Part shown: positions 2,284 to 24,858 of the stretch, in pieces
Layout of the letters: each line of letters begins with the position of its first letter
How positions within the stretch are numbered: position 1 is the first letter of the stretch
Origin: a virus
Taxonomy: Duplodnaviria > Caudoviricetes
Reading direction: 5' to 3' (one strand)
Length of the DNA stretch: 35,207 nucleotides
Virus record (IMG/VR): IMGVR_UViG_3300009131_000004
Location: 1 to 35,207 of that record
The notes under the pieces: model-generated
Database searches by the model: none
The model's input: the letters and a program-made list of their open reading frames with translations, nothing else
Told to the model about the DNA's origin: nothing
Translations under genes and position numbers: made by a program

Positions 2284-2369
2284 AGGTCGTAAAGCTCCTG
2301 CCCAACCCGCAGGATGCACACCTCCACAAGCCCGGTCGGTTGGTCACCGACCGGGCGCTTTCTTTTTCT
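2284..2369 (+). ncRNA. Putative ~85-nt leader/small RNA between promoter and terminator
   Basis: Bounded by the consensus promoter and an intrinsic terminator; internal CCTGC/GCAGG pairing. Confidence 0.5.
2330..2369 (+). terminator. Rho-independent terminator
   Basis: Perfect 11-bp stem GCCCGGTCGGT/ACCGACCGGGC, 5-nt loop, followed by GCTTTCTTTTTCT. Confidence 0.9.
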
Positions 2370-2409
2370 ACAGCCTCTTCTACAACTTGTAGTAATCTCC
2401 GTTCCTGCA

Positions 2410-3276
2410 ATGGAGATCCTGCGCTCGACTGACGGCAGCGAGATCGGCATCGTTGCCGCGACGTGGGAACTCAACCCGAAGGTCACCTTCGACAGCCTCG
2501 CCGACGAGTTCAAGCGCAACCCGTCGAAGGCGTGGCGAAACTACGGCTCGGTCATCTCGACCAGCATCGACGCCGCCATCAAGGAGCCAGACGCAGTGCT
2601 CCGGCGCGTCAACCTCGCGCGCCCGAGCCCGTGGGACCTCCGCCTGAACCAGTTCGCCGCGTGGTTCGCGCCGCGCTACGGCACCCGCTACTTCCTCCAC
2701 TTCGACCTCTCGCGCAACCGGGACGCCACCGGGGTGGCCCTCTGCCACCGGGAGAAGAACGGCGTGCTGGTCGTGGACTTCATGCTTCAGCACCGGGCCA
2801 TCGCCGGGAAGAACATCAACTTCGCGGAGCTTCGCGAGCGGTACGTCTACCCGCTCGTGGCCAAGGGCTTCCATCTCCAGTGCGTGAGCTTCGACGGCTT
2901 CCAATCCGATGAGACCCGGCAGGTGCTCGAAGAGCGCGGGCTCCACACCGACCACTGCTCGGCGGACAAGAGCACCGACGCCTACGACACGCTCATCGAG
3001 TACCTCTTCAGCGACAAGCTCGACTTCTACAGCTACCCGGTCTTCACGCAGGAGTTCGAGGAGCTTCGTCTCATCGACGGCAGGAAGTACGACCATCCGA
3101 AGCGGTTCAAGAACGGAGCAATCGGATCGAAGGATGTGGCCGACGCCGTGGCGTGCTCGGGGCTGATGGCCGTCCGCTACGAACTGGAGAACCCGGTGGA
3201 GGCACCGGGCAAGATCAAAGTCTTCCGCTCGAAGGCCATCACCGGCCTCACGTACGGCGAAAGGACGGCATGGTGA
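2410..3276 (+). CDS. terL: Terminase large subunit, C-terminal RNase H-like nuclease domain only
   Basis: TWELNP linker, FLHFDLSRNRDATGVAL, SFDGFQS and DHP..SKDVADAVA acidic motifs; directly upstream of portal; no Walker A/B. ATG 2410 is preferred over 2314, which would read through the terminator. Confidence 0.8.
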   Translation: MEILRSTDGSEIGIVAATWELNPKVTFDSLADEFKRNPSKAWRNYGSVISTSIDAAIKEPDAVLRRVNLARPSPWDLRLNQFAAWFAPRYGTRYFLHFDLSRNRDATGVALCHREKNGVLVVDFMLQHRAIAGKNINFAELRERYVYPLVAKGFHLQCVSFDGFQSDETRQVLEERGLHTDHCSADKSTDAYDTLIEYLFSDKLDFYSYPVFTQEFEELRLIDGRKYDHPKRFKNGAIGSKDVADAVACSGLMAVRYELENPVEAPGKIKVFRSKAITGLTYGERTAW

Positions 3277-3458
3277 GCAACGTCCACCGTCGCGGCTTCG
3301 CCTCGCTGTCCCCTGAACGACGCAAGGAAGTCGCGTCTCGGGGCGGCAAGAAGGCCCACGAGTTACGCAAGGCCCACTGCTGGACATCGGAGTCAGCCTC
3401 GGAGGCAGGCCGCAAGGGTGCGGCGGCGCGGCGGGCTCGCAAGGCGGCTACATCATGA
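3270..3458 (+). CDS. KGG-repeat (stress-induced, GsiB/YciG-like) small protein
   Basis: RRGFASLSPERRKEVASRGGKKAH...WTSESASEAGRKG matches the KGG family signature; AAGGA SD upstream. Confidence 0.8.
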   Translation: MVSNVHRRGFASLSPERRKEVASRGGKKAHELRKAHCWTSESASEAGRKGAAARRARKAATS

Positions 3459-6100
3459 GCATGATCACCGACACGAACGGCGACGCCCACCTGAAGGAGC
3501 TTGCCCGCGTGGCCGAGGCTGCCGCCGCCGAGGACCGGCCGGCAGGCGGGAACCACCTCGCCATCAAGCGGTACAAGTTCGTGGACCCCGACAAGGAGTT
3601 CGACGAGATGGTCCACACCGTCTCGACGAGGTTCGTCGAGGTGGACGCGAAGATGATGGAGCAGCGGGGCCGGGGCTACGAGCAGGTCCACTACCGCAGC
3701 CTCAAGGAGATGATGGCGGCCAAGCCTATCCGCCGTCGCGTGCTCAACGTGCTCTCCGGCTCGCAGCTTCGGGAGATCAACGAGCGGCTCGGTGACTACG
3801 TGTCTGGCCAGAAGGACCTGCGCGAGGCCCGCGCCAAGGGGAAGGCCGAGTTCGAGCGGCTCAAGGAGTCCGGCCGGCTTTCGGAAGCGTCCTCCAGCTT
3901 CTACCTTGGGCTCTACGGGGACGAGGAGCAGTTGTACGGGACGGGGCAGTCGAAGACCGTCTTCAGCTTGCAGGACACCATCCTGCCGGGAACTAGCAGC
4001 CCGCAGAGCAAGCAGCAACTCTTCATCGACTACCTCGACATGCACCGGAAGTCATGGGAGGCCGCGACGCGCAACCCGGTGGGCAAGCGCATCGTGGACA
4101 TCATCCCGCAGTTCGTGCTCGGGCGCGGGGTGATCGGCTCGACCAAGCATCAGGAGGGCCAGAACGCATGGGATGACTTCTGGAAGCGCAACAAGATGCG
4201 CGCGAGGTCCCGCCTGATCCTCAAGGAACTGCTGATCTACGGCGAGGTCTTCCTCCGGTACTTCAAGCAGCGGGACGGGCTCGTGGTCCGCAGCCTCGAC
4301 CCGAGCACGATCTGGGACATCGTGACCAACCCCGACGACATCGAGGACGTGAAGTACTACCATCAGCAGTACAGCATCCTCAACACCTCGCCGGTCCCGT
4401 GGGCCTCGACGACGCTCTTTCCCGGCACGCTCATCATCCGGCAGATCCCGGCCAAGGACATCGACCACTTCAAGATCAACTCGACCTCCTCGGAGAAGCG
4501 GGGCCGGTCGCAGTTGTACGCCATCCTCGGCTGGCTCCTCCGGTTCAAGGAGTTCGCCAACGACCGCGTGCTCCTCAACAAGATGCGCGCGATGTTCGCC
4601 CTCGATGTGGCCGTCAAGGGTGACGCCACCGACGTGGCCACGGCCGAGGCGCAGTTCTCGACGCCGCCCGGACCGGGGGCCGTGATGGTCCACAACGAGG
4701 CCGTCACCGTCGAGTACAAGAACGCGAACAACAACGCCAACGAGGCGAAGACCGACGCGGAGATGATCCTCAAGATCATCGCGGTCGGTGCGGGGGTCAG
4801 CCAGCAGTTCCTTGGGGTCACGGACTCGGCGACGCGGGCCGGCGCGCTCATTCAGACCGAGCCGGACGTGAAGAACTTCGAGATGTATCAGGAAGTCGTC
4901 GAGGACATGCTGATGGACACGTGGGAGCGTGTGAAGGCTTCCAAGGGCGTCCGGCAGTCCACCGTCATGGAGTTCACCTTCCCCGCGCTCGCGCAGGAGG
5001 ACCGCAGCGCGAAGCTCAAGGACATCGCGTTTGCCGAGGCGATGGACTACTTCTCGAAGGAGCGGTCCGGCACGATGGCGGCGCGCGAGTTCAACATCAC
5101 GACCTACAACTTCGAGACCGAGCAGACCAAGATCCGGGCCGAGCGCGGGAAGGATCCGGTCATGGCTCTCGGGATGCAGCAGATGCCGAAGGTCACGGCC
5201 GACCCGGCAGCGATGGGCGAGCAGCCGGGTCTCGGGGGCGACCTCGCGCCGGGCTCCGAGCCCGAGGCCCTCGCCGGCAGCCCGGAGCAGCCGCTCCCCA
5301 AGGGCTTCACGCCCGACAAGGGGCCGGTTACCCAGACGAGCGGGCAGATGGGCTTCTCGGCGAAGCGGCTCTCGGGCCGGGATCTGGCCAACACCAAGGC
5401 CACGCTCAACCGACCCGGCTTCGAGCGCGGGAAGGAGAAGCGGAAGATCAAGACGAACCAGTCGGAGGGCACGCCGTTGCGGGCGACCATGCCGCCCGAG
5501 CCCTACGGGATCCGGCTGCGCGAGACCGGCAACGGTCACGACTACTCGTCCACGCAGATCAACCTGCCGCCCAACGTGGCCACGGAGGTCAAGGCGCTCG
5601 CGGCGGTCATCCCCGACGATGTGCTCGCCGAGGACGGCCGTGAGGACCGGCCGCACGTGACGGTGAAGTACGGCCTGCACGGCAACGACCCGTCAACCAT
5701 CAAGCCGGTACTCGCCAAGCAGCCGCCGGTCGCCTTCGTCCTCGGGAAGACCAAGGTCTTCGAGAAGGACGATTGTGATGTCGTCTACGTCGAGGTCAAG
5801 TCGCCGGGACTCGGCAAGCTGCACAAGGCCGTCTCGGAAGCCCTGCCGAACACCGAGACCTACCCGACCTACGTCCCGCATGTGACGGTCGCCTACGTGA
5901 AGAAGGGGGAGGGGCAGAAGTACGCCGGCAACGCCACGCTCGTGGGCACGAAGGTGGTCGCCAGCGAGGTGCTCTTCTCGCCGAAGGACGGCACGAAGAT
6001 CAACCTCCCGCTCGGCAAGCCGCGCCACGTGTGGACCAAGGAGGCCCGCGCCAAGGCGCTTGAGGTCCGTCGGCAGAACGCGCTCAAGCGGAGGCAGTGA
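3455..6100 (+). CDS. Portal protein with C-terminal 2H phosphoesterase (Acb1-like) fusion
   Basis: Position after TerL; portal core (ELLIYGEVFL, LDPSTIWDIVTNPDD, RGRSQL); Pro/Gly linker; two HxT motifs HVTVKYG (5654) and HVTVAY (5879). Confidence 0.88.
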   Translation: MSMITDTNGDAHLKELARVAEAAAAEDRPAGGNHLAIKRYKFVDPDKEFDEMVHTVSTRFVEVDAKMMEQRGRGYEQVHYRSLKEMMAAKPIRRRVLNVLSGSQLREINERLGDYVSGQKDLREARAKGKAEFERLKESGRLSEASSSFYLGLYGDEEQLYGTGQSKTVFSLQDTILPGTSSPQSKQQLFIDYLDMHRKSWEAATRNPVGKRIVDIIPQFVLGRGVIGSTKHQEGQNAWDDFWKRNKMRARSRLILKELLIYGEVFLRYFKQRDGLVVRSLDPSTIWDIVTNPDDIEDVKYYHQQYSILNTSPVPWASTTLFPGTLIIRQIPAKDIDHFKINSTSSEKRGRSQLYAILGWLLRFKEFANDRVLLNKMRAMFALDVAVKGDATDVATAEAQFSTPPGPGAVMVHNEAVTVEYKNANNNANEAKTDAEMILKIIAVGAGVSQQFLGVTDSATRAGALIQTEPDVKNFEMYQEVVEDMLMDTWERVKASKGVRQSTVMEFTFPALAQEDRSAKLKDIAFAEAMDYFSKERSGTMAAREFNITTYNFETEQTKIRAERGKDPVMALGMQQMPKVTADPAAMGEQPGLGGDLAPGSEPEALAGSPEQPLPKGFTPDKGPVTQTSGQMGFSAKRLSGRDLANTKATLNRPGFERGKEKRKIKTNQSEGTPLRATMPPEPYGIRLRETGNGHDYSSTQINLPPNVATEVKALAAVIPDDVLAEDGREDRPHVTVKYGLHGNDPSTIKPVLAKQPPVAFVLGKTKVFEKDDCDVVYVEVKSPGLGKLHKAVSEALPNTETYPTYVPHVTVAYVKKGEGQKYAGNATLVGTKVVASEVLFSPKDGTKINLPLGKPRHVWTKEARAKALEVRRQNALKRRQ

Positions 6101-6101
6101 G

Positions 6102-6959
6102 ATGGAAGAGCCTCAGCCGCCACCGCTGCTCCAGCAGAGTCTCTACGAGAAGATCGCGGAGCTTCAGCGTCGCGAGTTCGACCTGATGCGACGGATCAAG
6201 GCTCCGTACGAGGCCGTGCTCCGAAGCTGGCGGGATGAACTCGAACGGTCGTTCCTCCGGAACTTCGTCCTGCCGATGGGTCCGGAGGGGCGGCAGCAGG
6301 TGTGGAACCCGGCAGTGGTGGAACCTGTGACCGAGAGCCTCATCGAGCCGCTCGACGAGGCCATCACGGAGGTGGAGGACGACCTGCTCGACGGGCTCGA
6401 AGAGGAGGAAGACGATACGTACGAGTTCGGCCTCCTCTTCGGGCTCTGGGAGTTGTCCCTCGGGGGCGTCGATGTCGAGGACTACGAGATGCCCGAGGAG
6501 GGAAGCTACCGGGACCTCCTGCTCGCCGGGGCGTTCCTCGGCATCCCGCTGGCGGAGCGGCTCCGGGCATGGGGCGACACCTACGTGGACAAGTTCCGCC
6601 GCTCGCTCCGGGGCAGTGTCGTCTCTGGCTCGACCCTACCGTCCACCCTCTCGACCATCGACATCCTCATGAAGGGGCTGCCGGCTCAGGCCGCCTCGCT
6701 CGGGGCCAACGAGATCTTCCGGGCCTTCGTTCAGGGGGAGCGCAGGGTCTTCGAGGACTTCGGTGAGGACTGGCTCTGGGTGACGAGGGCCGACGAGCGG
6801 GTCTGCTCACGGTGCGCGCCGCTGCACATGACCATCACGACGCTCGTCCCGGTGGATGACACGCATCCCGACTGCCGGTGCTCGATTATCCCCGTGCCGG
6901 CGGGCTATACTCCAACGCCATCCTCCTTCGCTGCTTTCGCCCAGAGGTTCACCGCATGA
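6102..6959 (+). CDS. Minor head/head morphogenesis protein (MuF / SPP1 gp7 family)
   Basis: WLWVTRADERVCSRC...HPDCRC signature; follows portal. Confidence 0.85.
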   Translation: MEEPQPPPLLQQSLYEKIAELQRREFDLMRRIKAPYEAVLRSWRDELERSFLRNFVLPMGPEGRQQVWNPAVVEPVTESLIEPLDEAITEVEDDLLDGLEEEEDDTYEFGLLFGLWELSLGGVDVEDYEMPEEGSYRDLLLAGAFLGIPLAERLRAWGDTYVDKFRRSLRGSVVSGSTLPSTLSTIDILMKGLPAQAASLGANEIFRAFVQGERRVFEDFGEDWLWVTRADERVCSRCAPLHMTITTLVPVDDTHPDCRCSIIPVPAGYTPTPSSFAAFAQRFTA

Positions 6960-8059
6960 AGGACCGTCCAGAAGTGCTTTGGCTCCACTCCGACCGGACC
7001 GGGTGTGGAACCTACCGCTGCTACGTGCCGGCACTCACACTTCAGGAGCGCGGTTTCGAGAACAACTTCCTGATGCACGACCAGTGCGTCCCTGCCAACA
7101 GGACCCAGTTGAACGGGATCGACCTCGTGGTCTTTCAGCGGGCGGTCGGGTCGCTCTTCCTCGAATGGGCGAAGGAGTGTCGGGCGAGGGACATCAAGGT
7201 CGTCTTCGAGATGGACGATGACCTCTTCCACATCCCGAAGAACAACCCGGCCTCGTGGTTCTGGCACAAGAAGGCCGTGCAGAAGCTCCTCCGGCAGATG
7301 CTCGATCTCTCAGACTGGATCATCGTCTCGACGCCTCCGTTGCGGGACGCTCTTGCCCACGAGACGGGTCGGAAGGACATCTCAGTCTGCTTCAACCACC
7401 TGCACCCAAGCGTATGGGGACCCGGTGCGGTGGACGATGTGCAGAAGTTCGAGAACTTCGGCAAGACCATCATCGGGTGGCAGGGCAGCAACACGCACGA
7501 CGCCGACTTCAAGGTGGCGCTCCCCGCCCTCGCACGCATCCTCGCTGATTACCCGCACGTGATGATGCGCTTCTTCGGCAACGTGCCTCTGAGCGTGAAG
7601 GGCATCGTCCCTGAGACCCGCTTCCAGTGGGCGCGCGGCGTGCCGTTCGACCGCTACCCGGCGACACTGCGGTTCATGAACTTCGACATCGGCCTCGCGC
7701 CGGTCACGACCGCGAAGTTCAACCAGTCGAAGAGCAACCTGAAGTGGCTGGAGTACTGCTCGCTCGGTGTCCCGTGCGTCGCGGCGAACGTCTTCCCCTA
7801 CGGGAAGACCGGCATCAGGCATGGAGAGACCGGCTTCCTCGCCGAGACGGAGGAGGAGTGGTACACTGCGCTTGCGGCATTGGTCGAGTCGGAGGACCTC
7901 CGCCGGCAGATCGGCGGACGGGCGCGTGACCATGCGTGGGAGAAGTGGGGACCGGATCGGGCGCTCGGGTGGGAGCAGGTCTTCCGCCCGCTGCTTGGTG
8001 TCAAGGTCGAGGAGAGGGTCGATGACCAACCTGCAACCGAACTCACGCAGTCAGCCTGA
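6956..8059 (+). CDS. GT-B (GT4-like) glycosyltransferase
   Basis: GCGTYR..P, VFQR, EMDDDLF, IGWQGS..H..D, DIGLAP..FNQSKSNLKWLEY, HGETGFLA motifs; ATGA overlap. Confidence 0.9.
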   Translation: MKDRPEVLWLHSDRTGCGTYRCYVPALTLQERGFENNFLMHDQCVPANRTQLNGIDLVVFQRAVGSLFLEWAKECRARDIKVVFEMDDDLFHIPKNNPASWFWHKKAVQKLLRQMLDLSDWIIVSTPPLRDALAHETGRKDISVCFNHLHPSVWGPGAVDDVQKFENFGKTIIGWQGSNTHDADFKVALPALARILADYPHVMMRFFGNVPLSVKGIVPETRFQWARGVPFDRYPATLRFMNFDIGLAPVTTAKFNQSKSNLKWLEYCSLGVPCVAANVFPYGKTGIRHGETGFLAETEEEWYTALAALVESEDLRRQIGGRARDHAWEKWGPDRALGWEQVFRPLLGVKVEERVDDQPATELTQSA

Positions 8060-13889: not shown

Positions 13890-14297
13890 ATGTTCCGAGG
13901 CCTGCGGGCTCCCCGGTGGTTCGTGCAGCGCGACATCCACGCGCTCGTGCGGAGCTTCCCCTCCGAGCGCCTGACCATCGTGCGCCCGACCACCGTGGTG
14001 AGCGGCATGGAGACCACGACGACGGACACCGTGGTCTTCGTCGGCGAGGCGCTCTTCATCCCGCAGGGTGGCGAGGTCAAGCGGTTCGGCCTCGGGCAGG
14101 TCGAGGAAGACCGCCCGTACATCCTTGTCCCCGGCAACCACGACATCCGGCAGGGTGACATGGTGACGCGCTCGCAGATGCTCCCCGGTGGCGTCGGATG
14201 GGAGCCGCCGAGGCGGTACCAGATCCTCTACCCACCGAACCATTGGCAGGCGTTCACGGTCTGTACGCTGAACAACTTCGAGCAGGGGCAACTGTGA
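13890..14297 (+). CDS. Head closure/stopper protein (SPP1 gp16-like)
   Basis: 135 aa, beta-rich, DIRQGDMV...RYQI motif; synteny. Confidence 0.7.
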   Translation: MFRGLRAPRWFVQRDIHALVRSFPSERLTIVRPTTVVSGMETTTTDTVVFVGEALFIPQGGEVKRFGLGQVEEDRPYILVPGNHDIRQGDMVTRSQMLPGGVGWEPPRRYQILYPPNHWQAFTVCTLNNFEQGQL

Positions 14298-15082
14298 TCA
14301 CACCTGACTCAAACGGCGAATCGGAGATCGGGGAGAAGGGCTGGACCGACGAGGCCCGCGCGGCGGCCCTCGCTGCCCGGCGTGCGCTCTCCGGCAAGGC
14401 GGCGCGGGCTGACGCGCAGAACTCGGCCAAGCGGCTCATGGACGAACGGCGGCGGGTGATGGCGGCCCACAAGGCGGCCTCTGCCTCCTCGCACCCGCTC
14501 GACCAACGGCTCGCGAAGATGCACGCCGACAAGCTGGCGGCCATCGACCGGGTAGGCGCGAAGCTCGCGCCGAAGGTGAGGAGCCCCCGCAAGGAAGCCA
14601 TCAAGTCGGCAGGCCGGGCAGCCGGGCGCTTCCTGAAGCGGCTCTTCGTCAGGGAGGCCGAGGGCGACACCAAGGTCCTGCGTTTCGTCGAGGCGCTCGT
14701 GGTCCTCGTCGAGGGCACCGACCTGCACGAGGCCAACTACGCCACGCTCATGGAGCGGTGGAGCGACGCGGCGCGGGCCGCCGCGCTGGCGGCTCGGCGG
14801 GCGAAGAAGCGCGGGCAGAACTGGAAGGCCGCCGGCCGTAGGGCGTTCCTCGATGCGCTCCCTGCCTCGGAGCAGGCCCGTCTCCGGCGCGGGGAGGCCA
14901 GCCCCGGTGACAAGAAGCTCGCCGCCAAGTGGGCCGGCCGGTACGCCAGCAAGCCGGGCTCACGAGTCGCGCGAGGGATGCAACAGGAGTTCGAGCGGGA
15001 ACGGGGGGAGCGGAAGGCGGCACGGTTCGCGCCGAGGCCGAAGCAGCCGCAGGCGCTCCGGGATCTCTGGGCAAGCCAGTGA
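14294..15082 (+). CDS. Basic protein with two W[ST]D[AE]AR motifs
   Basis: GTGA-coupled start; EKGWTDEARAAALAARR (14342) and LMERWSDAARAAALAARR (14759). Confidence 0.75.
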   Translation: MITPDSNGESEIGEKGWTDEARAAALAARRALSGKAARADAQNSAKRLMDERRRVMAAHKAASASSHPLDQRLAKMHADKLAAIDRVGAKLAPKVRSPRKEAIKSAGRAAGRFLKRLFVREAEGDTKVLRFVEALVVLVEGTDLHEANYATLMERWSDAARAAALAARRAKKRGQNWKAAGRRAFLDALPASEQARLRRGEASPGDKKLAAKWAGRYASKPGSRVARGMQQEFERERGERKAARFAPRPKQPQALRDLWASQ

Positions 15083-15605: not shown

Positions 15606-16016
15606 ATGGATGACATCAAGCTGAAGCTGCTCGACCTGATGCGGACCGACCCGACGCTGCAAGCGTACCTCGGTGGGTCCGTTACCGATCCGCGCGTCTA
15701 CATGTACTACCAAGGCGACGCGCTCATCGACTCGCAGCATCCGGCCTACATCACCTTCAGCAACATCTCGACTGGGGAGGCCGCATCTGCCGTCGAGGAG
15801 CCCGTGTTCTCCGTCGTCGTGTGGTCGCGTACGTGGTCACGCTGCGAGGAGATCCGGGACCGGCTGCGCGCACTCTTCCATAAGAAGATCTTTGTCACGA
15901 CGCCGGACTCGCGCAGAATCTACACCAAGTTCGTGGGCGAGCAGGACAGCTATCAGGATCAACCGAAGTACGCCGGCAAGACCATCAGGCTGCGAGCCGG
16001 TTGGAGCACCGTGTGA
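15606..16016 (+). CDS. Tail terminator protein (DUF3168/gp17-like)
   Basis: DPTLQAYLG...RVY...PAYITF...VVVWS...EEIRDRLRALFH pattern. Confidence 0.75.
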   Translation: MDDIKLKLLDLMRTDPTLQAYLGGSVTDPRVYMYYQGDALIDSQHPAYITFSNISTGEAASAVEEPVFSVVVWSRTWSRCEEIRDRLRALFHKKIFVTTPDSRRIYTKFVGEQDSYQDQPKYAGKTIRLRAGWSTV

Positions 16017-16318
16017 TCATCACCCCGAACTCGTGGGGCACTGACTTCACCGAGGCGTGGAGCGACGCCGCGAGGGCTGCGGCGGTTGCCGCACGGCGGG
16101 CAAGGAAGCAGGGGGAGGACTGGAAGAGGGCCGCACGCGCGGCGTACTTGCAGTTCTCAAGACCTTCGGAACGGCGGCAGGTTGTGCGTGGCCGTAGGGA
16201 CAGGATGAGGCCGGGGGAGGGCACGGCAGACCTGAGGCGTCGAGCCCGACGCTTCGCCCCTGAGCCGACGGGTGACCGGATGAAGGCGTGGGCGGGGGGT
16301 ACTTACCTCCCCTTCTGA
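16013..16318 (+). CDS. Small basic WSDAAR-motif protein
   Basis: GTGA-coupled start; FTEAWSDAARAAAVAARRARKQGEDWKRAAR. Confidence 0.75.
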   Translation: MIITPNSWGTDFTEAWSDAARAAAVAARRARKQGEDWKRAARAAYLQFSRPSERRQVVRGRRDRMRPGEGTADLRRRARRFAPEPTGDRMKAWAGGTYLPF

Positions 16319-16892: not shown

Positions 16893-17990
16893 ATGGCCGA
16901 ATCCGTTGTTCAGATCCGATGGGCGTACTCGAACAAGCGACAGAGTGCGTACCAGACCGAGAGTCCCTCGGGAGACATCACGCAGTCGCATCCGTTCGTT
17001 GGGGCCGACATGGGCGAGCACACGCCGAACATGTCGGACAACGCTCAGCAGTACGGCAAGGGGCACGAGTTCGCGACCCGCAACGAGATCCTCTCGTGGG
17101 AGTCGATGTTCCGGCGCTCCTTCCAAGCGACCACCAAGATCCTTGGGTGGGCGTTTGCCTTCCACACGGGGTCGGTGAACACCACAAACCTCGGTGGCGG
17201 GGCGTACCAGCACGTCTGCGAGTATCAGGACCCCCTCGGGACGGGCTACTACGGCTCCGGCCGTCAGCAGCCGGTTGCGACCATCTACGAGTTGGTGGCC
17301 AGCAACCTCCTGCGCATCTTCCCCTCGATGGCGGTCAAGGCCGTCGAGGTCACCGGCCAGCAGAACGACTGGGTGCTCTGCGCACTGGAGATGCAGGGCA
17401 GCGGCTCGATGCGCCGCATCCAGCCGTCCGACTTCACGTGGCCGGACTCGACCGACGCTACGCTCGGAGGCGAGGGCACGCTCCTGCGCAACGCCAGCCT
17501 GCTCTTCGAGCATGGGGTGTACGGCGGGGCTCAGGCCGATGAGTCGTGCAACGTGCGCAGCTTCCGGTTCCGGTCGGAGTACGCCTACTTCGACACGGAC
17601 GGGTACTGCCCCGGCTCCGGCTACCTCGTGAGCGGCGACCCGCACTCGGGGCAGATCCGGAACAAGCTGGAGTTCGCGCGCCGCGCCGTGGTCTTCGAGT
17701 TCGTCGTGAAGGCCCCGAGCACCGGCAACGTCATGTTCACGCGGCTCGAAGCCGCGACGAAGATGGCGGCCACGCTCACGGTCACCGGGGACGAGATCGC
17801 CTCCTCGGGCTACGACCACACGCTGAAGATCGAGATCCCGCAGTTGAACTACCGGGCTGTGCCCATCGGGACTGACGGGGATCAGATCATCTACTCTGCG
17901 AGCACCATCGTCTTCTACGACAACTCGGAAGCGAACCCGTGGAAGGTGACGGTGAACAACCAGTTCGCCAGCTACCTCGTCTCGTCGTAG
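16893..17990 (+). CDS. Major tail tube protein
   Basis: GGAGAAGGG SD; 365 aa, beta-rich; C-terminal LKIEIPQLNY...VTVNNQFASY; precedes TAC and TMP. Confidence 0.8.
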   Translation: MAESVVQIRWAYSNKRQSAYQTESPSGDITQSHPFVGADMGEHTPNMSDNAQQYGKGHEFATRNEILSWESMFRRSFQATTKILGWAFAFHTGSVNTTNLGGGAYQHVCEYQDPLGTGYYGSGRQQPVATIYELVASNLLRIFPSMAVKAVEVTGQQNDWVLCALEMQGSGSMRRIQPSDFTWPDSTDATLGGEGTLLRNASLLFEHGVYGGAQADESCNVRSFRFRSEYAYFDTDGYCPGSGYLVSGDPHSGQIRNKLEFARRAVVFEFVVKAPSTGNVMFTRLEAATKMAATLTVTGDEIASSGYDHTLKIEIPQLNYRAVPIGTDGDQIIYSASTIVFYDNSEANPWKVTVNNQFASYLVSS

Positions 17991-18086: not shown

Positions 18087-18590
18087 ATGGCTACGAAGCT
18101 CCGCCTGAAGCCTGAAGACTACGAGAAGATCGACCGGATCGTTGGACTGTCCGGCGAGGAGTACTACTCCGTCGTGACGCACCGCGTCCGGGGGAAGTGG
18201 ATCCGTTCCATCCACGTCTTCGCCCGGCAGCCCATGACCAAGGAACTCACCGAGTACGAGAACACCGCCTCGCGGATCAAGATGAAGGGCAACCGGACCG
18301 AGGTCGAAGGGTCCCAGTTGCTCGCCGCCAAGCACCTCTACGACGCGCTCATCTCCCGCGCGTACGACGTGCCCGTGGGCTGGAAGATCTACGGCGAGGT
18401 CGATGTCGATGAGACCGGCGCGGTGAAGAGCGGCAAGCCGCTCGACCGCCCCGAAGCCGTCAAGACCGTTCCCGCCACCATCAAACGCGAGGCCCTGCGC
18501 GACACGTTCGGCGAGGTCTACTCCGAGGCGCGCGTCGCGGAGATGGAAGGCGAGGACGAAGAGGTCAAGGGCGACAAGGAGGAGGACTGA
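18087..18590 (+). CDS. Tail assembly chaperone (lambda G-like)
   Basis: AGGAGG SD; lies between tube and TMP. Confidence 0.75.
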   Translation: MATKLRLKPEDYEKIDRIVGLSGEEYYSVVTHRVRGKWIRSIHVFARQPMTKELTEYENTASRIKMKGNRTEVEGSQLLAAKHLYDALISRAYDVPVGWKIYGEVDVDETGAVKSGKPLDRPEAVKTVPATIKREALRDTFGEVYSEARVAEMEGEDEEVKGDKEED

Positions 18591-18993
18591 CCGGGCCACG
18601 GGGCTCCGGCTGGCCATGCGGTCGGCCCTCTACCTGACGAAGCGGGACAGCTTCGGGTGTGAGAAGCCGGACTGCGAGTGCCCGAAGCACCTGCGCATCG
18701 ACGGCCTCGGCGAGCCGGACACGACGCTCACCCCGCGTGTCCGGCACATCGTCAGGCTGGAGTCGATGGTCAACGTCGGGTGCAAGTTCGGGCCGAATGA
18801 CCTGAAGCCGGACCAGTGGCGAGACCTGATCGTCCTCGCGCAGGAGCGCAACTGGATAGACGAGAGGGTGCAGGAGCACCGGGAGAAGGCAAGGGAGGAG
18901 CAGGCGCAGATCGACAAGGCGATGGCTGAGGCCCGAAAAGCCTCCGGGGTCCCGTCGCCGGGCCAGTCGCTCTTTCCGGGGAAGGGGAAGTAA
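18589..18993 (+). CDS. Tail assembly chaperone C-terminal (T-like) segment, probably reached by +1 recoding; first ATG at 18616
   Basis: +1 frame is open across the upstream stop (DRATGLRLAMRS...); no SD before ATG 18616; ends 3 nt before the TMP. Confidence 0.65.
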   Translation, partial: DRATGLRLAMRSALYLTKRDSFGCEKPDCECPKHLRIDGLGEPDTTLTPRVRHIVRLESMVNVGCKFGPNDLKPDQWRDLIVLAQERNWIDERVQEHREKAREEQAQIDKAMAEARKASGVPSPGQSLFPGKGK

Positions 18994-18996
18994 CCG

Positions 18997-21900
18997 ATGG
19001 CGATGCTGGCGGTCCTCGACGTAGACGATCTCGCGACGCCGAAGATCCAGCGGGTGAAGAACGCCCTCGACGATCTGACCGCCCAGACGGCTCAGACCGC
19101 GAAGGCCACGGCCTCGGCCTCGAAGGGCTTCATCGACCCCAACGCCATCGAGGACCAACTCAAGAACCTGACGGCGCTCAACCGGGAGATGGCCCAACTC
19201 CGTACCCAGTCCGGAGCGTGGTCCATCCTCGGCAAGCAGATGCAGGAGGGCACGAAGGTCACCAAGACGCAGGCCGCTGCGCTCATGGACCTGAGCGGTG
19301 CCCTCCTGATGAGCGACAACGCCTCCCACAAGCTCCAGTACGGCTCGATGGTGCTGGCCGGCGGCCTCAAGGAGGGGGCCGTCGTCACGGGAGAACTGCG
19401 CGAGAAGCTCCTCGCGATGGGGCAGGAGTTCGACAAGGCCAACGGGTTCATCTCGAAGACCGCCCCGGAGGCGAAGAAGGCCGACGATGCGCTCGCCGGC
19501 ATGGCGAAGACGGCTGGCACGCTCATGGGCGCGCTCGCCGCGCTCGGGGCCAGCTACAAGCTCAAGGGCCTGCTGGAGGAGAGCTTCAACCTCGCGGCAC
19601 GCAATCAGGTGCTCTCGACGACCATTCAGGTCGTCAGCAAGAACGCGCACATCGCCAGCAACGAGATGGAGTTGCAGGCGCAGAAGGTCAAGGCACTCGG
19701 CATCACCACGCGCGAGGCGCGCGAGGCCGTCATCTCGTTCGCGCAGGCGCAGTTGAACATCGCCGACACGGCGAAGATCGCGCGGGTCGCGCAGGACCTC
19801 GCGGTCGTGGCCGGCGTGAACTCCTCGCAGGCCTTCGACCGCCTGACCCGCGCCATCCAGTCTCAGCAGGCCGAGATCCTCCGCAGCTTCGGCATCGTCA
19901 AGAACACGAACCTGATCTACTCCGAGTACGCGGCCACCCTCGGCAAGGGGGTGAAGCAACTCACCGATCTGGAGAAGAAGCAGGCCTTCGTCAACCTGAT
20001 CATCAAGGAGGGCGAGAAGGTCGCCGGGGCCTACACCAACGCGATGAACGACGTTGGTAAGGCGATGACCTCGATGTCTCGGTACACCGAGGAGGCCAAG
20101 GCCAAGCTCGGGGAGGCCCTGCTCCCCATCATGCTGAAGATCGTGCTCGCCGCGACCGAGGTCCTGAAGTGGTTCGGGAACCTCTCGCCTGAGACCTACA
20201 AGTGGGCGGCGGCCATCGGTGCGGCCGTCGTCGTGATGACCTCGTTCCTCGGCATCGTGATGGCCGTGTCGGCGGCCCTCCCTCTGCTCGCCGCTGCATG
20301 GGCCGCGCTACTCGGCCCTATCGGGCTCGTCGCGCTCGCCATCGGGGCTGTCACCGCCGCCATCGTGCTCTTCACCGCCACCTCGACGCCGCAGGTTGAG
20401 AAGGCCAACGAGCGGGCGCTCGCGTACAAGGCCGAGGCCGAGACGCTTGAAGGCCTGAAGAAGAAGCTCGGGGAGCAGAAGGAGGCCTACGAGAAGGCCA
20501 ACGCTGCCTCCGCTGACACGATGGACCGGACCGGGAAGATCGACAAGGCCGCGCGGGACTATCAGGTCACCCTCGCGAAGATCTCCGAGACCTACCCCGG
20601 TGTCATCCGGGGCGAGCAGGCGGTCGGCGAGCAGTACGAGGCGAACGTCAAGCGCATCGACGATCAGATCCTCAAGCTCAAGGAACAGCAGATCATCCAA
20701 CAGCAGGTGGCCATCTCCGAGGGGAAGAGGGCCAAGGAGGAACTCGACAAGGCCACGGACAACGCAAACCGGCTCCGGGAACTGTACGCCCGTGTCCAGT
20801 CGGGCGGGGAGGGCGAGGTCCGGAAGGTCTGGGCGGAACTGGCAGCGACGGTCGGGGCCGTTTCGCCGGCCATCCTGAACGTCATGCAGATGATGGACGC
20901 CTTCGGCATGACCACTCAGCAGAAGGCGCTCCTGCTGAAGGTTCTCGGCAAGGCCCTCGGTGACGCCGAGGAGGATCTGAAGTCCCTCACCGCCCAGTTC
21001 GAGAAGTTCAAGGCCATCCTCGATCAGATCGACCCGTCCCGAGCGGCAGCCCGCGTGACGGCGGAAGTGGAGCGCATCTCCTCGGCAGCCGGCGGGATGG
21101 AGAAGTTCGCGGCCCGAGCCAAGCAACTTGGCGTAGACGTGACGCCCGTCGTGTCCTTCGACCGGAACAAGTTCGAGAAGGACGTGAAGGCGAAGATCGA
21201 CGAGGCGAACACCATCTACGGCAAGGCGATGGCGGCCACGGGGGAACGCCGCACCGCGCTCATGCGCGACTACGTTCGGGTGTTCGGGGAGATGGAGGCC
21301 CTCAGCAAGGAGACCACCGACAAGATCCTCGCGGCCGAGAACAACTTCACCACCAAGGACGCCGAGGACAAGAAGAAGCGGCAGGAAAACCTCCAGAAGT
21401 GGCAGGCGGCCTACAAGCAGACGTACGAGTCGATCACCGAGACCAACGCCACGGCCGGCGCGAACTTCGCGGGCGCAGCGGCAGCCCTCAACAAGGCCGG
21501 CCTGAGCACCGAGGAGTATGCGAGCCGGCTGCTCCGGGCGAAGAGCATCGTCGAGGCCTTCAACAAGGCCTCCCCGGAGATGAGGGCGAAGTTCAAGGAA
21601 CTGGCCGTCGCCGCCGACGAACTCGCGCGCATCAAGCTGCACGACACCCTCGACAAGTGGGAGAAGAAGTTCACCGAGGTCTCGACCAACGTCAAGGAGT
21701 CGGTCAACGACATGATGGAGGCCTTCGAGCGCGGCTCAGCCGAGCGCATCGAGGCCGCCGGACGCAAGCAGGTCGAGGAGGAGCGGAAGCTCGCGCGCAC
21801 GGTCGAGCAACTCCAGACGGAGTTGTACGAGCGGACCGTGGTCGCGAAGATGAAGGAGGTGGACCAGAAGATCTACGCCAACAACAAGTACTTCGAGAAC

Positions 21901-24858
21901 TACCGCCGGGGCATCGAGGATCAGATCCGCGCCCTACGGCTCGCGCAGGAGGAAGAGGCCCGCGCCATCCTGAAGCGGCAGGAGGCCGCCGAGCGCCAAC
22001 TCGACGACACCATCCACAAGGCGAAGATGCGCTTCAAGATCGAGGTCGAGACGGAGACCGAGATCGAGAAGGCGAAGAAGGCCATTCAGGAGGGCGGCAG
22101 CAAGGAAGAGATCGAGCGGAAGATCGCCGCCATCAAGCAGCGGTTCGACAATGAGATGAACCTGCTCCGCGATCAGGGGATGCGCCGGATCGCCGAGGCC
22201 ACGGCCCGCGAGCAGGAGGAACTTCGGATCCGGAAGGAGGGGCAGGACAAGCAGATCGCCATCATGGAGGAGACGGCGGAGCGCAGCAAGGACGTGCAGG
22301 CGCGGACCAATCAGGAGATCCGCAACGACTACGACAAGCTGCAACAGTACGCGAAGATGGCCTTCGGGGGCATCGTCGAAGGCATAACCTCCAACTTCGA
22401 GAAGGTCCTCACCGGGCAGGCTTCCTTCAAGGACGCCTTGATCGGCATCTGGCAGTCGATCAAGTCCACCATCTCCGGCATCATCGACTCCATCGTCAAG
22501 TCGTGGATCCAAGGGGCCATGAGGATGGCCACGGCGAACGGGGGCTTCTCTCCCGGCACGTTCCTCTCGGGCCTGCTCGGGAAGGGCGGGCCGATGGGTG
22601 GGCAGGGCGCGGGTGCGGACTTCGTGGGTCCGCCCGCCCCCGGTGGCGGCGGGCTGTTCGGCGGCCACATGTGGGGGAAGGGCCTGACGACGGGCGGGAA
22701 GGTGATGGGCGGCCTCGGGGGTGGGGCTATCGGTGGCATGGTCGGCTTCAGCGTGGGCCAGTCCACCGGCTCGAAGACGTGGGGTGCCGCCTCAGGAGCC
22801 GCCACGGGTGCAGCAACCGGAGCCATGTTCGGCGGACCCATCGGAGCCGGCATCGGCGCGGGCATCGGCGCGCTCGCTGGCCTGATCGGCGGCTGGCTCG
22901 GAGGGAAGAAGCAGGCCGAGGAGGCGAAGAAGATGCGGGAGGAGTTGATCCAGCAAGCCGGAGGGCTGGAGCAACTCAAGAAGAAGGCGGAGGAGGCGGG
23001 CTTCAGCATGGACAAGCTGATGAGCACGAAGAAGCCCAAGGACCTCCAGAGGGAGATCGAGAAGCTGAACAAGGCCCTCGAAGCGCAGGCGAAGATCGAG
23101 GCGCTCAAAAAGGCCAAGGAGGGACTCGACGACACCTACACGAAGATGATTACCCTCCAGAAGCAGGCGCAACTCGTCGGCTTCGACATGAAGAAGCTGT
23201 ACGACGCGAAGACCATCGAGGAGTTCAACGCCGAGCAGGAGAAGCTGAACAAGCTCCTCGAAGATCAGGCGAAGCGGATGGCCGGCCTGAACATGGCGGC
23301 CACCGGGCTCGCGAGCCGGGTGAAGGGGCTGACCGGGTTCCTCGAACGGTCCGTCGAGGACTGGTTCAAGCAGTTCTCCGACGAGAACCGGGAACGGTTC
23401 GAGGAGGACTTCAAGAAGGCCGGCGAGGCGGGCTTCAAGGGCTCGGAGTTCGAGTTCGCCCGCGCGAACGCCGAGAAGTACGGCCTCTCGCTCGACCGGC
23501 TCAACGAGCGGCAGGCGCGCGTGCAGGAGTCGATCAACCGCATCGGCCAGTACGCCACGGCCACCTTCGGCGGCATCCTCCGCGAGACCGGCGACATCAC
23601 GCAGGCCTTCGCCGCCGTCGCCGGTCCGCTCGACGAACTCGCCGCCATCATGGAGCAGACCGGCACGAAGGCCGAAGGCGCGCTCGGCTACCTGATGGAG
23701 TTCCGGAACACCATCCGGAACAACGAGGACGTGGCTGCCTCCCTGAGCGGCATCAACCAGATGCTCATGGGGCTGGCCGACGCCGGCCGGCTCACCGCCG
23801 AGATGTTCAACACGTTCGGGGCCGACGCCTCTGAGCAGTGGCGAATCATGGAGGAGCGGGGGGTCGCCGCCGATCAGGCGCTCCTGCTCATGCAGCCCAC
23901 CTTGCAGGCCCTCTATGAGGCCCAGAAGAACTATGGCTTCGCGACCGACGAGGCCACCCAGAAGCTCATCGACATGGGTGTGGCCAACGGCGTGGTCGGC
24001 GACCAGTTTCAGGATGTCAACAGCAAGATGCTGGACATGCTGACGATCATCGCCGAGGCCCTCGGCGCGACCATCCCGGACGCCTACAAGCGGCAGTCGC
24101 AGGCGGCAGCCGAGGCCGGGCAGGCTGGCACGCAGGCCGCGCAGGACACCGCCGCCGGGCTCGAAGAGCAGGCCCGGCAATCGGAGGAGGCCTACAAGCG
24201 GTGGCAACAGCTTGAGCGGGAGATGAGCCGGGTGGACACCTCGGGGGTGGACGGCCTCGCCGACGCCGTGGGTGGACTGCCCGACAAGTTCGGCGATGCG
24301 GCTGCGGCGGCGTGGGACGCCTCACAGGAAATTCAGGACGCGATGGCTGCGGCGCAGCCGGACGTGGACGCCATCTCCCTCGGCCACTCGCCGGGCGGCC
24401 TCAAGGAGATCCGCATCAAGTTGCGGGAGGCCATCGACTCCCTCCGGGAGTTCCGGGCAGCCGGGCGCGAGAACCTGCGGGGCGTCGAGGACTCGGTGAA
24501 CGCCGTCGTGGACCGCATGGGTGAGGTCAAGCCGGCGACCGACGACGTGTTCAAGGGCGACCGGAAGGACAGCACGGACCCGTTCGCTGACGAGACGGCC
24601 CCGCGCCCGGTGGTGGCGGCTCCGCCTACGGGCGAGCAGCCGGCCGAGGGGGAGAAGAAGCCCGAGCAGCCGGCCGTGCAGGTGGTGCTCTCGCCGGAGT
24701 TCAAGATCGACACCATCGACGCCGCCGGGATGGAGGCCGCTGTCCGCGAGAAGATCGGGCCGCAGATGATTGCCCAGATGCGGAACAACACGGACCAGTT
24801 GACGGTGGAGATCGGCCGTGCGCTCGACCGCTACTTCGGAGGGCGGAAGTCTGCATGA
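18997..24858 (+). CDS. Tail tape measure protein
   Basis: 1953 aa, Ala/Lys/Glu-rich helical; hydrophobic segments near 20130-20390; Gly-rich segment near 22540-22900; follows the chaperones. Confidence 0.95.
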   Translation: MAMLAVLDVDDLATPKIQRVKNALDDLTAQTAQTAKATASASKGFIDPNAIEDQLKNLTALNREMAQLRTQSGAWSILGKQMQEGTKVTKTQAAALMDLSGALLMSDNASHKLQYGSMVLAGGLKEGAVVTGELREKLLAMGQEFDKANGFISKTAPEAKKADDALAGMAKTAGTLMGALAALGASYKLKGLLEESFNLAARNQVLSTTIQVVSKNAHIASNEMELQAQKVKALGITTREAREAVISFAQAQLNIADTAKIARVAQDLAVVAGVNSSQAFDRLTRAIQSQQAEILRSFGIVKNTNLIYSEYAATLGKGVKQLTDLEKKQAFVNLIIKEGEKVAGAYTNAMNDVGKAMTSMSRYTEEAKAKLGEALLPIMLKIVLAATEVLKWFGNLSPETYKWAAAIGAAVVVMTSFLGIVMAVSAALPLLAAAWAALLGPIGLVALAIGAVTAAIVLFTATSTPQVEKANERALAYKAEAETLEGLKKKLGEQKEAYEKANAASADTMDRTGKIDKAARDYQVTLAKISETYPGVIRGEQAVGEQYEANVKRIDDQILKLKEQQIIQQQVAISEGKRAKEELDKATDNANRLRELYARVQSGGEGEVRKVWAELAATVGAVSPAILNVMQMMDAFGMTTQQKALLLKVLGKALGDAEEDLKSLTAQFEKFKAILDQIDPSRAAARVTAEVERISSAAGGMEKFAARAKQLGVDVTPVVSFDRNKFEKDVKAKIDEANTIYGKAMAATGERRTALMRDYVRVFGEMEALSKETTDKILAAENNFTTKDAEDKKKRQENLQKWQAAYKQTYESITETNATAGANFAGAAAALNKAGLSTEEYASRLLRAKSIVEAFNKASPEMRAKFKELAVAADELARIKLHDTLDKWEKKFTEVSTNVKESVNDMMEAFERGSAERIEAAGRKQVEEERKLARTVEQLQTELYERTVVAKMKEVDQKIYANNKYFENYRRGIEDQIRALRLAQEEEARAILKRQEAAERQLDDTIHKAKMRFKIEVETETEIEKAKKAIQEGGSKEEIERKIAAIKQRFDNEMNLLRDQGMRRIAEATAREQEELRIRKEGQDKQIAIMEETAERSKDVQARTNQEIRNDYDKLQQYAKMAFGGIVEGITSNFEKVLTGQASFKDALIGIWQSIKSTISGIIDSIVKSWIQGAMRMATANGGFSPGTFLSGLLGKGGPMGGQGAGADFVGPPAPGGGGLFGGHMWGKGLTTGGKVMGGLGGGAIGGMVGFSVGQSTGSKTWGAASGAATGAATGAMFGGPIGAGIGAGIGALAGLIGGWLGGKKQAEEAKKMREELIQQAGGLEQLKKKAEEAGFSMDKLMSTKKPKDLQREIEKLNKALEAQAKIEALKKAKEGLDDTYTKMITLQKQAQLVGFDMKKLYDAKTIEEFNAEQEKLNKLLEDQAKRMAGLNMAATGLASRVKGLTGFLERSVEDWFKQFSDENRERFEEDFKKAGEAGFKGSEFEFARANAEKYGLSLDRLNERQARVQESINRIGQYATATFGGILRETGDITQAFAAVAGPLDELAAIMEQTGTKAEGALGYLMEFRNTIRNNEDVAASLSGINQMLMGLADAGRLTAEMFNTFGADASEQWRIMEERGVAADQALLLMQPTLQALYEAQKNYGFATDEATQKLIDMGVANGVVGDQFQDVNSKMLDMLTIIAEALGATIPDAYKRQSQAAAEAGQAGTQAAQDTAAGLEEQARQSEEAYKRWQQLEREMSRVDTSGVDGLADAVGGLPDKFGDAAAAAWDASQEIQDAMAAAQPDVDAISLGHSPGGLKEIRIKLREAIDSLREFRAAGRENLRGVEDSVNAVVDRMGEVKPATDDVFKGDRKDSTDPFADETAPRPVVAAPPTGEQPAEGEKKPEQPAVQVVLSPEFKIDTIDAAGMEAAVREKIGPQMIAQMRNNTDQLTVEIGRALDRYFGGRKSA

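What the first reader, a model, noticed from the sequence alone, without database searches (positions are those of the whole stretch)
18574..18618. prfB-like +1 shift or stop-hop site joining the tail chaperones instead of the usual -1 slippery heptamer
Seen: the TAC gene ends AAG GAG GAG GAC UGA C. The downstream ORF is in the +1 frame, is open across the stop, and has no SD before its ATG (18616). An SD-like AAGGAG sits 3 nt before the last sense codon, and the stop is UGA-C. The codon GAC (18585) is repeated at 18589, overlapping the stop (GAC-U-GAC). Known: prfB uses AGGGGG-3 nt-CUU-UGA-C for +1 shifting; most siphophage G/GT pairs use -1 XXXYYYZ sites; tRNA hopping needs matched take-off and landing codons. 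Inference: peptidyl-tRNA-Asp slips +4 over the stop to give ...KEED-RATGLRL..., which would make the G:GT ratio sensitive to RF2 level.
Basis: partly seen in the sequence, partly recalled or inferred. Interest (0 to 1): 0.8.

Follow-up and report, generated by a model that had tools for sequence, protein, structure and literature searches.

The report
Short stop-codon hop joins tail chaperones
In this uncultured phage and its relatives, the first tail-chaperone gene ends in an aspartate codon plus a stop, and a matching aspartate codon follows 1-5 bases later in the frame of the second gene, so some ribosomes likely hop the stop to make the long chaperone, a trick so far described mainly in laboratory constructs.

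Summary
The tail assembly chaperone gene (18087-18590) ends AAG GAG GAG GAC TGA C. The next ORF (T) is in the +1 frame, and GAC repeats at +4.

Of 10 distinct junctions with DNA, 8 end in GAC-stop. In 7 of those 8 an Asp codon in the T frame follows at +4, +5, +7 or +8, in both the +1 and +2 frames, after TGA or TAG. A strong internal Shine-Dalgarno (SD) sequence abuts the take-off codon in 6 of the 7. T is conserved as protein upstream of ATG 18616, which is not a conserved start.

Best reading (about 0.57): peptidyl-tRNA-Asp, paused at the stop and pushed by the SD, re-pairs at the matched codon, giving a 300-aa G-T fusion (...KEED/RATGLR). RF2 sensing is not conserved.

Against: no expression data. 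Four of the 7 have a possible alternative start, one GAC-stop junction has no landing codon, and one clade starts T separately.

The scan had not noted this family. It had noted long hairpin-type hop candidates in other tail chaperones.

The parts
16893..17990 (+). Tail tube (major tail) protein, upstream neighbour that fixes the synteny
   Evidence: ESM Atlas: best hits carry PF18906 Phage_tube_2 (39-62% of members), structure TM 0.89 over 340 residues; no Pfam or PHROG hit
18087..18590 (+). Tail assembly chaperone, G part (167 aa), ends ...VKGDKEED*
   Evidence: Lies between tube and tape measure. Model pLDDT 83. Top solved match is 3FGX, Z 6.4, rmsd 4.0, 90 aligned, next rows 2.7; 2OB9 and 3KLU are also listed weakly. 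All three are called TACs in PMC9603447 (passage). 39 homologues.
18576..18585 (+). Internal Shine-Dalgarno-like run AAGGAGGAGG; AGGAGG at 18577-82 is 2 nt before take-off and 6 nt before landing
   Evidence: Strongest anti-SD pairing in the gene; strong in 6 of 7 Asp-stop-Asp junctions, weak in the 3 other junction types
18585..18587 (+). Last sense codon GAC (Asp), predicted take-off codon
   Evidence: GAC in 8 of 10 DNA junctions; GAT in the X19 relative; terminal Asp in 32 of 55 TAC proteins versus Glu in 8
18588..18590 (+). TGA stop, predicted slow A-site codon
   Evidence: Sequence; 6 TGA and 1 TAG among the 7 Asp-stop-Asp junctions
18589..18591 (+). GAC in the T frame, predicted landing codon (+4, one base skipped)
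   Evidence: Counterparts at +4 (L004, L008, L009), +5 (L005), +7 (L010) and +8 (L007)
18592..18993 (+). T part (133 aa from the predicted resume codon CGG): GLRxxIR helix, Cys-rich loop, VNVGCKFGPNDL, long helix
   Evidence: 74 homologues; model pLDDT 94 with helix 5-18 starting at Gly 18601, five codons before the Met; no fold match in BFVD
18616..18618 (+). ATG that gene callers use; an internal Met, not a conserved start
   Evidence: The same column reads ATG, ATT, GTG, ATC, GTT, ATC, ATT, ATT, ATC in 9 junctions
18997..24858 (+). Tape measure protein (1953 aa), starting 3 nt after the T stop
   Evidence: PHROG tape-measure families, best E 3.7e-08

Best explanation
The two ORFs between the tail tube and tape measure genes are likely the G and T parts of a lambda-type tail assembly chaperone, and a minority of ribosomes likely join them by a short hop over the stop codon rather than by a slippery-heptamer frameshift. 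Shown by sequence: G ends SD-GAC-TGA, a second GAC lies at +4 in the T frame, T is conserved as protein upstream of its first ATG, and relatives keep an Asp codon on both sides of the stop at +4, +5, +7 and +8. Inferred steps: (1) the ribosome pauses with GAC in the P site and the stop in the A site; (2) the SD pairs with 16S rRNA at too short a distance (2 nt), which favours forward movement; (3) peptidyl-tRNA-Asp lets go of GAC and the mRNA slides 4 nt; (4) it re-pairs at the matched GAC, now 6 nt from the SD, a relaxed spacing; (5) decoding resumes at CGG 18592, giving a 300-aa fusion with junction ...VKGDKEED/RATGLRLAMR... Most ribosomes would terminate and make the 167-aa G, setting a high G:GT ratio. 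No RNA structure appears to be needed. By analogy with lambda, G would coat the tape measure protein and T would recruit the tube protein (not tested).
For: (a) Identity of the genes: synteny plus folds. (b) T is translated upstream of ATG 18616. The five codons before that position show pairwise identity 0.64/0.69/0.37 at codon positions 1/2/3 in 9 junctions; the block was anchored on the motif, so the contrast with position 3 is what counts. The Met sits in mid-helix of a confident model. The X19 relative has a synonymous T-frame change at 18603. No canonical start lies upstream in frame in the window, L005 or L008. (c) Matched codons: 7 of 8 GAC-stop junctions have GAY in the T frame at +4..+8; 2.9 expected, P=8e-4 if independent, which overstates it because they are related. 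L005 (GAC-TA-GAC) and L007 (GAC-TGATC-GAC) use the +2 frame and fall in separate clades among +1 junctions, so the frame changed at least twice while both Asp codons stayed. L010 lost the +4 match but has GAT at +7. X19 changed take-off to the synonymous GAT. (d) SD: -7.0 to -11.7 kcal/mol and in the top 3% of positions of its own gene in 6 of 7, against -1.8 to -3.5 in the 3 other junction types. One of the two best AGGAGG registers is 5-7 nt from the landing codon in all 7, a post-hoc choice. T4 gene 60 has a mini-SD 6 nt before its landing site (passages). Glu codons at -3/-2 are GAG 8 of 8 versus 121 of 174 elsewhere. (e) Terminal Asp:Glu is 32:8 versus 97:149 in the preceding 11 residues of 55 proteins, and Asp is kept on the longest branches. 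(f) Stop hops between matched codons occur at low level in E. coli constructs (passages).
Against: No peptide, reporter or ribosome data, and the host is unknown. Only 10 distinct DNA junctions. Four of the 7 offer another start in the T frame: ATG at -2 (L004), GTG at -2 (L009), ATG at -14 behind GAGGA (L010), and CTG overlapping the stop (L007). With TGA and the +1 frame, a GAY at +4 arises about half the time by chance, so the weight rests on L005, L007 and L010, and only L005 is free of an alternative start. L012 ends GAC-TAA with no matched landing codon. L007 has a weak SD and a competing GAT at +4 in a dead-end frame. Protein-only homologues P0081, P0083 and P0084 seem, by my back-translation, to end in Asp-stop with no Asp close behind; P0081's cluster mate P0142 does have one at an inferred +10. 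The T-frame Asp could be an inherited residue rather than a landing site. Three of the 10 junctions clearly use something else.
Confidence: 0.57

Rival explanations
1. A G-T fusion is made, but by an SD-stimulated shift of one or two bases at the stop without matched re-pairing: a prfB-like +1 slip, or out-of-frame tRNA binding that skips 1-2 nt. The junction would carry the extra residue (…EED-D-RATGLR).
For: The SD sits next to the last codon and UGA-C is the prfB stop context (recalled). +1 shifts use an SD 3 nt upstream (PMC5009743 passage). All T frames are open right after the stop, and this reading would also cover L012 and P0081 without a landing codon. +1 shifts without P-site re-pairing are discussed for yeast (PMC12661321, abstract start only); +1/+2 shifts at stops in Euplotes are recalled.
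Against: tRNA-Asp has at most one wobble pair with the +1 codon ACU and none with the +2 codons CUA/CUG (base-pairing rules). It does not explain the GAY excess after the stop or the Asp-over-Glu preference at the last codon. A fixed +1 slip cannot serve L005 or L007. SD spacing is 2 nt in the prfB register.
Confidence: 0.17
2. No fusion: T is a separate protein made by coupled re-initiation near the G stop, with the SD serving initiation at whichever canonical or near-cognate start each lineage has (here ACG 18598 or ATG 18616).
For: L006 has GAG GAG TAA GTG in frame, and P0075, P0076 and P0077 begin with Met just before the motif. Possible starts exist in L004, L009, L010 and L007. Several protein-only homologues may have GTG/TTG right after the stop (inferred).
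Against: The window, L005 and L008 have no canonical start before the conserved GLR helix. The codons at initiation distance from the SD are GAC/GAT, not starts. In L004 and L009 the SD touches the putative start at 0-1 nt. It gives no reason for a conserved terminal Asp.
Confidence: 0.19
3. The frame change happens elsewhere or at another level: a +1/-2 slip further upstream in G (CCC at 18450 or 18471, CGC at 18531), or RNA-polymerase slippage across the short GAC repeat.
For: Such re-pairing options exist in the 160-nt overlap. -2 and +1 shifts are known in other tail chaperones (PMC5009743 passage). L012 and L011 probably do shift at other sites.
Against: The T frame is open only 42-51 nt upstream in L004, L007 and L010, so upstream sites are not shared. 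A 3-nt repeat is too short for polymerase realignment (established knowledge) and is imperfect in L010 and X19. The SD and terminal Asp point to the ribosome at the stop.
Confidence: 0.07

Closest known systems
Lambda gpG/gpGT and the conserved tail-chaperone frameshift of long-tailed phages (-1; -2 in Mu; probably +1 in HSTV-2) (PMC5009743, passages)
   Same: Position between tube and tape measure genes, TAC-like fold of the first ORF, a second ORF in another frame without its own conserved start, and an expected short/long product pair
   Different: No slippery heptamer. The change is at the stop itself. Target frame and distance vary within one family, and re-pairing would be at a non-overlapping codon.
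Phage T4 gene 60 translational bypass (PMC5009743, PMC7026636, bioRxiv 2024.12.09.627546; passages)
   Same: [quoted passage not shown]
   Different: Gap of 1-5 nt instead of 50. No conserved stem-loop. Asp instead of Gly. It would set a product ratio rather than repair an insertion. A nascent-peptide signal was not tested.
Laboratory stop hops and +5/+6 hops in E. coli constructs (Weiss et al. 1987; seen only as cited)
   Same: Matched codons flanking a stop, a jump of a few bases, no RNA structure
   Different: Here the arrangement is natural, conserved across proteins 45-64% identical, and coupled to an internal SD
Streptomyces phage Hau3 terminase bypass (PMC10732093, passages)
   Same: Short (7-10 nt) phage bypass with an upstream SD and a landing codon; junction peptide shown there in E. 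coli
   Different: Triggered there by the rare UUA codon and flanked by RNA structure; it removes inserts from an enzyme
prfB (RF2) +1 autoregulatory frameshift (PMC10885494 passage; SD spacing)
   Same: Internal SD just before the last codon, UGA-C stop, +1 target frame in this phage
   Different: CUU re-pairs at UUU whereas GAC cannot re-pair at ACU. Spacing is 2 nt rather than 3. Relatives use TAG and the +2 frame, so no conserved RF2 loop.

Membership tests
Tail assembly chaperone G/GT pair | Two ORFs between the tail tube and tape measure genes | tested here: met
   T is also followed by a tape-measure-like start in the related loci that extend that far
Tail assembly chaperone G/GT pair | First ORF has the TAC fold | tested here: inconclusive
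   Best match 3FGX, Z 6.4, well above the next rows but under 8; 2OB9 and 3KLU at Z 2.5-2.7; weak TAC hits in BFVD, none at E<=0.001; no Pfam or PHROG hit
Tail assembly chaperone G/GT pair | Second ORF out of frame and lacking a conserved own start | tested here: met
   exception: the L006 clade
Tail assembly chaperone G/GT pair | Fusion product made as a minority species; T binds the tube protein | not testable with these tools
   Needs expression; complex prediction was not run
Lambda-type -1 slippery-heptamer frameshift | X XXY YYZ heptamer with T in the -1 frame | tested here: not met
   None in 18427-18587, and T is in +1
prfB-type +1 frameshift | P-site tRNA can re-pair at the +1 codon | tested here: not met
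   GAC to ACU; the junction codon is absent from the re-pairing list
prfB-type +1 frameshift | SD about 3 nt before the shift codon, and UGA in the A site | tested here: inconclusive
   SD present at 2 nt in the prfB register; TGA in 6 of 7 junctions, TAG in 1
Programmed translational bypass (gene 60 type) | [quoted passage not shown] | tested here: met
   Window and 6 other junctions; 7 of 8 GAC-stop junctions
Programmed translational bypass (gene 60 type) | SD-like sequence about 6 nt before the landing codon | tested here: met
   5-7 nt in all 7 for one of the two best registers, chosen post hoc; weak in L007
Programmed translational bypass (gene 60 type) | Take-off stem-loop and flanking stem-loops | tested here: not met
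   60 nt after the stop: z -0.04 in the window, below -2 in only 1 of 10 junctions; the 5' side was not folded
Programmed translational bypass (gene 60 type) | Nascent-peptide stimulator; junction peptide lacking the gap residues | not testable with these tools
   Needs a reporter and mass spectrometry

The most novel reading that the evidence does not exclude
This phage family uses a natural, programmed, structure-free stop hop as its G/GT switch. An internal SD acts as a ruler that pushes peptidyl-tRNA-Asp off the last codon and sets it down on the Asp codon 5-7 nt away, so the jump has drifted between +4, +5, +7, +8 (and perhaps +10) and between frames without loss of function. Sister clades appear to have swapped in other matched re-pairings (a +2 move on CAC-AC, -1 on G-GGG-UAG), possibly a rare Arg codon in place of the stop, or a separate start. 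That would make the family a natural evolutionary series of minimal bypass signals.
Probability: 0.5. Interest if true: 0.86.

Novelty: new variant of a known kind. Interest (0 to 1): 0.74.

Why it matters
Natural bypassing is known from very few cases: T4 gene 60 and relatives, Magnusiomyces mitochondria and probably Streptomyces phage Hau3. Most of these repair insertions. A 2016 review treats short stop hops as findings from synthetic constructs and asks for cases where bypassing has a function of its own (PMC5009743, passages).

Here a roughly 20-nt signal with natural variants in jump length, frame, stop identity and SD strength would make the long-standing question of how take-off and landing are chosen directly testable in E. 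coli. It would add a further way of making the G/GT ratio. It also implies that gene callers truncate T in this family, and that frameshift predictors built on -1/+1 slippery motifs would miss the site.

Tried and rejected
More DNA junctions
- Genome collection: nothing with the TAC profile. Nine T-motif matches showed no homology beyond the motif and no TAC upstream, so chance.
- Viral collection: only near-identical copies and L017; L023 was chance.
- INPHARED phages and plasmids: no match for G, T or the tube. No cultured relative and no host.
- L013 and L014 end before the junction and were left out. L001-L003, L015, L016 and other copies match the window (100% G protein; junction DNA checked for L003, L015, L016) and were counted once. 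L017 was counted with L011.

Sequencing runs
- No RNA holder listed.
- The second laying of contigs gave only short unrelated matches.

Structure and slip sites
- A conserved 3' hairpin: rejected.
- An upstream slippery heptamer: none.
- T fold search: no match at E<=0.001.
- Reassigned TGA: would read on in frame 0, which closes at once and is not the conserved frame.
- RF2-specific regulation: not conserved.

Literature
- Ten searches found no report of a stop hop in a tail chaperone.
- The library lacks most subscription papers. Xu 2004, Baranov 2006, Weiss 1987 and the halovirus papers were not read (one look-up failed).
- No supplements were opened. The PRFect supplement on motif-less SEA-PHAGES sites could bear on prior examples.

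Full report
Context. The window is a linear 35.2-kb virus record, 66% G+C, holding a head and tail gene block: terminase fragment, portal, protease, capsid, tail completion proteins and tape measure. ORF 16893-17990 has no family hit but matches tail-tube clusters by features and structure (TM 0.89). ORF 18997-24858 is the tape measure protein. The two ORFs between them therefore sit where G and T of lambda sit. The model of the first (pLDDT 83) has as its only clear solved match 3FGX (Z 6.4, rmsd 4.0, 90 residues), with the HK97 chaperone 2OB9 and YqbN 3KLU weakly listed. PMC9603447 calls all three tail assembly chaperones (passage). Z is below 8, so the assignment rests on synteny plus fold.

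Observation. G ends AAG GAG GAG GAC TGA C, T is in +1 and open across the stop, GAC recurs at +4, and ATG 18616 has no SD. There is no slippery heptamer and no canonical start upstream in the T frame. A contig from another study reproduces the junction exactly. No other of 28 gene ends combines an SD with a matched codon after the stop.

T begins before its ATG. T homologues share a GLRxxIR..LY block that starts five codons before the window's Met. At the Met column 9 junctions read ATG, ATT, GTG, ATC, GTT, ATC, ATT, ATT and ATC. The five codons upstream vary mostly at third positions (identity 0.64/0.69/0.37). In the model (62 sequences, pLDDT 94) the Met is residue 10 of a helix running from 5 to 18. 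A ~90% relative differs between stop and ATG only by a synonymous T-frame change. So ribosomes must enter the T frame at or near the stop.

The junctions. Locus searches gave 12 metagenome and 3 viral loci. After removing copies of the window, two contigs that end early and one near-duplicate, 10 distinct junctions remain, with G proteins 39-64% identical to the window's. Eight end in GAC-stop, and seven of these have an Asp codon in the T frame right behind: window, L004, L008 and L009 GAC-T-GAC (+4; three also have a second Asp at +7); L005 GAC-TA-GAC (+5, +2 frame, TAG); L010 GAC-TGAG-GAT (+7); L007 GAC-TGATC-GAC (+8, +2 frame). About 2.9 of 8 are expected by chance, and P is 8e-4 if the loci were independent, which they are not. 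The +4 cases are weak one by one, because TGA in +1 gives GAY half the time. The informative ones are L005, L007 and L010. On the tree L005 lies in the clade of L004, and L007 in the clade of the window and L008, so the target frame changed at least twice while both Asp codons stayed. L005 looks like a one-base insertion into GAC-T-GAC that turned TGA into TAG. A fixed +1 slip would not survive that; a hop to a matched codon would. In the X19 relative the take-off codon is GAT, read by the same tRNA.

Supporting signals. Among 55 G proteins the last residue is Asp in 32 and Glu in 8, against 97:149 in the preceding 11 residues (five partial or distant hits were left out). The 10 nt before take-off give the best or nearly best anti-SD pairing in the gene in 6 of the 7 junctions and unremarkable pairing in L007 and the three other junction types (generic anti-SD, host unknown). 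One of the two best SD registers lies 5-7 nt before the landing codon in all seven, whereas its distance to take-off varies from -1 to 2 (register chosen after the fact). T4 gene 60 has a mini-SD 6 nt before its landing site, and +1 shifts use an SD 3 nt upstream (passages). No conserved structure follows the stop.

Mechanism. Most likely the ribosome pauses at the stop, the too-close SD pairing favours forward movement, peptidyl-tRNA-Asp re-pairs at the matched codon at relaxed SD spacing, and decoding resumes at CGG 18592. The product is a 300-aa fusion with a single Asp before RATGLR. These steps are inferred. They rest on stop hops seen in E. coli constructs and on gene 60 (passages). The stop would act as a slow codon, not as an RF2 sensor.

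What speaks against it. Nothing was measured. L004, L009 and L010 have ATG or GTG in the T frame at -2, -2 and -14, and L007 has CTG overlapping the stop, so separate initiation is possible there. Only the window, L005 and L008 lack it. L006 and its relatives end in EE* and start T with their own GTG/ATG. This shows that separate initiation works in this family, though also that the terminal Asp is lost when it does. L012 ends GAC-TAA without a landing codon. Its T motif overlaps the stop, and it shares a His-Thr (CAC-ACG) behind an SD-like run with four protein homologues, which suggests an upstream +2 re-pairing (inference). L011/L017 end GCG GGG TAG with T in -1, as for a -1 slip on four G's. 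By hand back-translation of gene-called N-termini, P0041, P0047, P0092 and P0095 fit the +4 pattern, P0087 may fit +8 and P0142 +10, while P0081, P0083, P0084 and P0098 show no near match. These are unverified and biased towards proteins that callers happened to extend.

Comparison and novelty. It works like lambda G/GT in purpose and like gene 60 or Hau3 bypassing in signal, but fails the defining tests of the -1 heptamer and of prfB re-pairing, and lacks gene 60's stem-loops. Ten literature searches found no stop hop in a tail chaperone. The 2016 review lists -1, -2 and +1 for these genes and says no natural in-frame stop hops were known. Papers seen as passages: PMC5009743, PMC10885494, PMC10732093, PMC3711429, PMC9603447, PMC7026636, bioRxiv 2024.12.09.627546. 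Seen as listing or abstract start only: PMC12661321, bioRxiv 2022.08.31.505936. The prfB sequence, release-factor specificity and the Euplotes shifts are recalled. The scan's own notes hold nothing on this family but three unchecked notes on long hairpin-closed hops in another chaperone family.

Verdict. The feature is real and conserved. A recoded G-T fusion is likely (about 0.8), and a matched-codon stop hop is its most likely mechanism (about 0.57). New variant of a known kind; interest 0.74.

Noticed in passing
window 3455-6100 (residues about 706-820): The portal protein carries a C-terminal 2H-phosphoesterase domain (PF13563 E 7e-13; anti-CBASS Acb1 PF23474 E 7e-05, below its cut-off). 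A counter-defence-like enzyme fused to a virion portal is unusual.
   Followed up: no
window 1046-1648, end of 3455-6100, 14198-15082 (twice), 16001-16318: A short peptide motif, W[TS]D[AE]AR.A.L..R, recurs in several small basic ORFs scattered among head and tail genes and at the portal C-terminus.
   Followed up: no
window 2314-3276: Only a 320-aa, apparently C-terminal part of the large terminase is seen (PHROG E 1e-05). No ATPase part was recognised in the ORFs scanned upstream, so the terminase may be split.
   Followed up: no
window 3153-3458: Small ORF resembling the KGG stress-induced repeat motif (family name recalled; not scanned).
   Followed up: no
window 6878-8059: Glycosyltransferase (phrog_7162, E 6e-34) between portal and head protease.
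   Followed up: no
L012 about 590-625; proteins P0035, P0037, P0039, P0059: A clade with a conserved His-Thr near the G end (CAC ACG behind GGAGGA in L012) and T in the +2/-1 frame: candidate +2 re-pairing of tRNA-His on CAC-AC.
   Followed up: partly
L011 and L017, 2939-2950: G ends GCG GGG TAG with T in -1: candidate single-tRNA -1 slip on four G's at the stop. The two copies differ by a synonymous T-frame change right after the stop.
   Followed up: partly
proteins P0018, P0020, P0022, P0023: G proteins that run on past the usual EED/EGD end into what back-translates as the T region in +1; the stop seems replaced by a sense codon. DNA not available.
   Followed up: partly
window 18637-18690 (T residues about 17-33): T has a Cys/His-rich loop (C-x4-C-x-C-x2-H) that is expanded or absent in different clades; possible metal site.
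   Followed up: no
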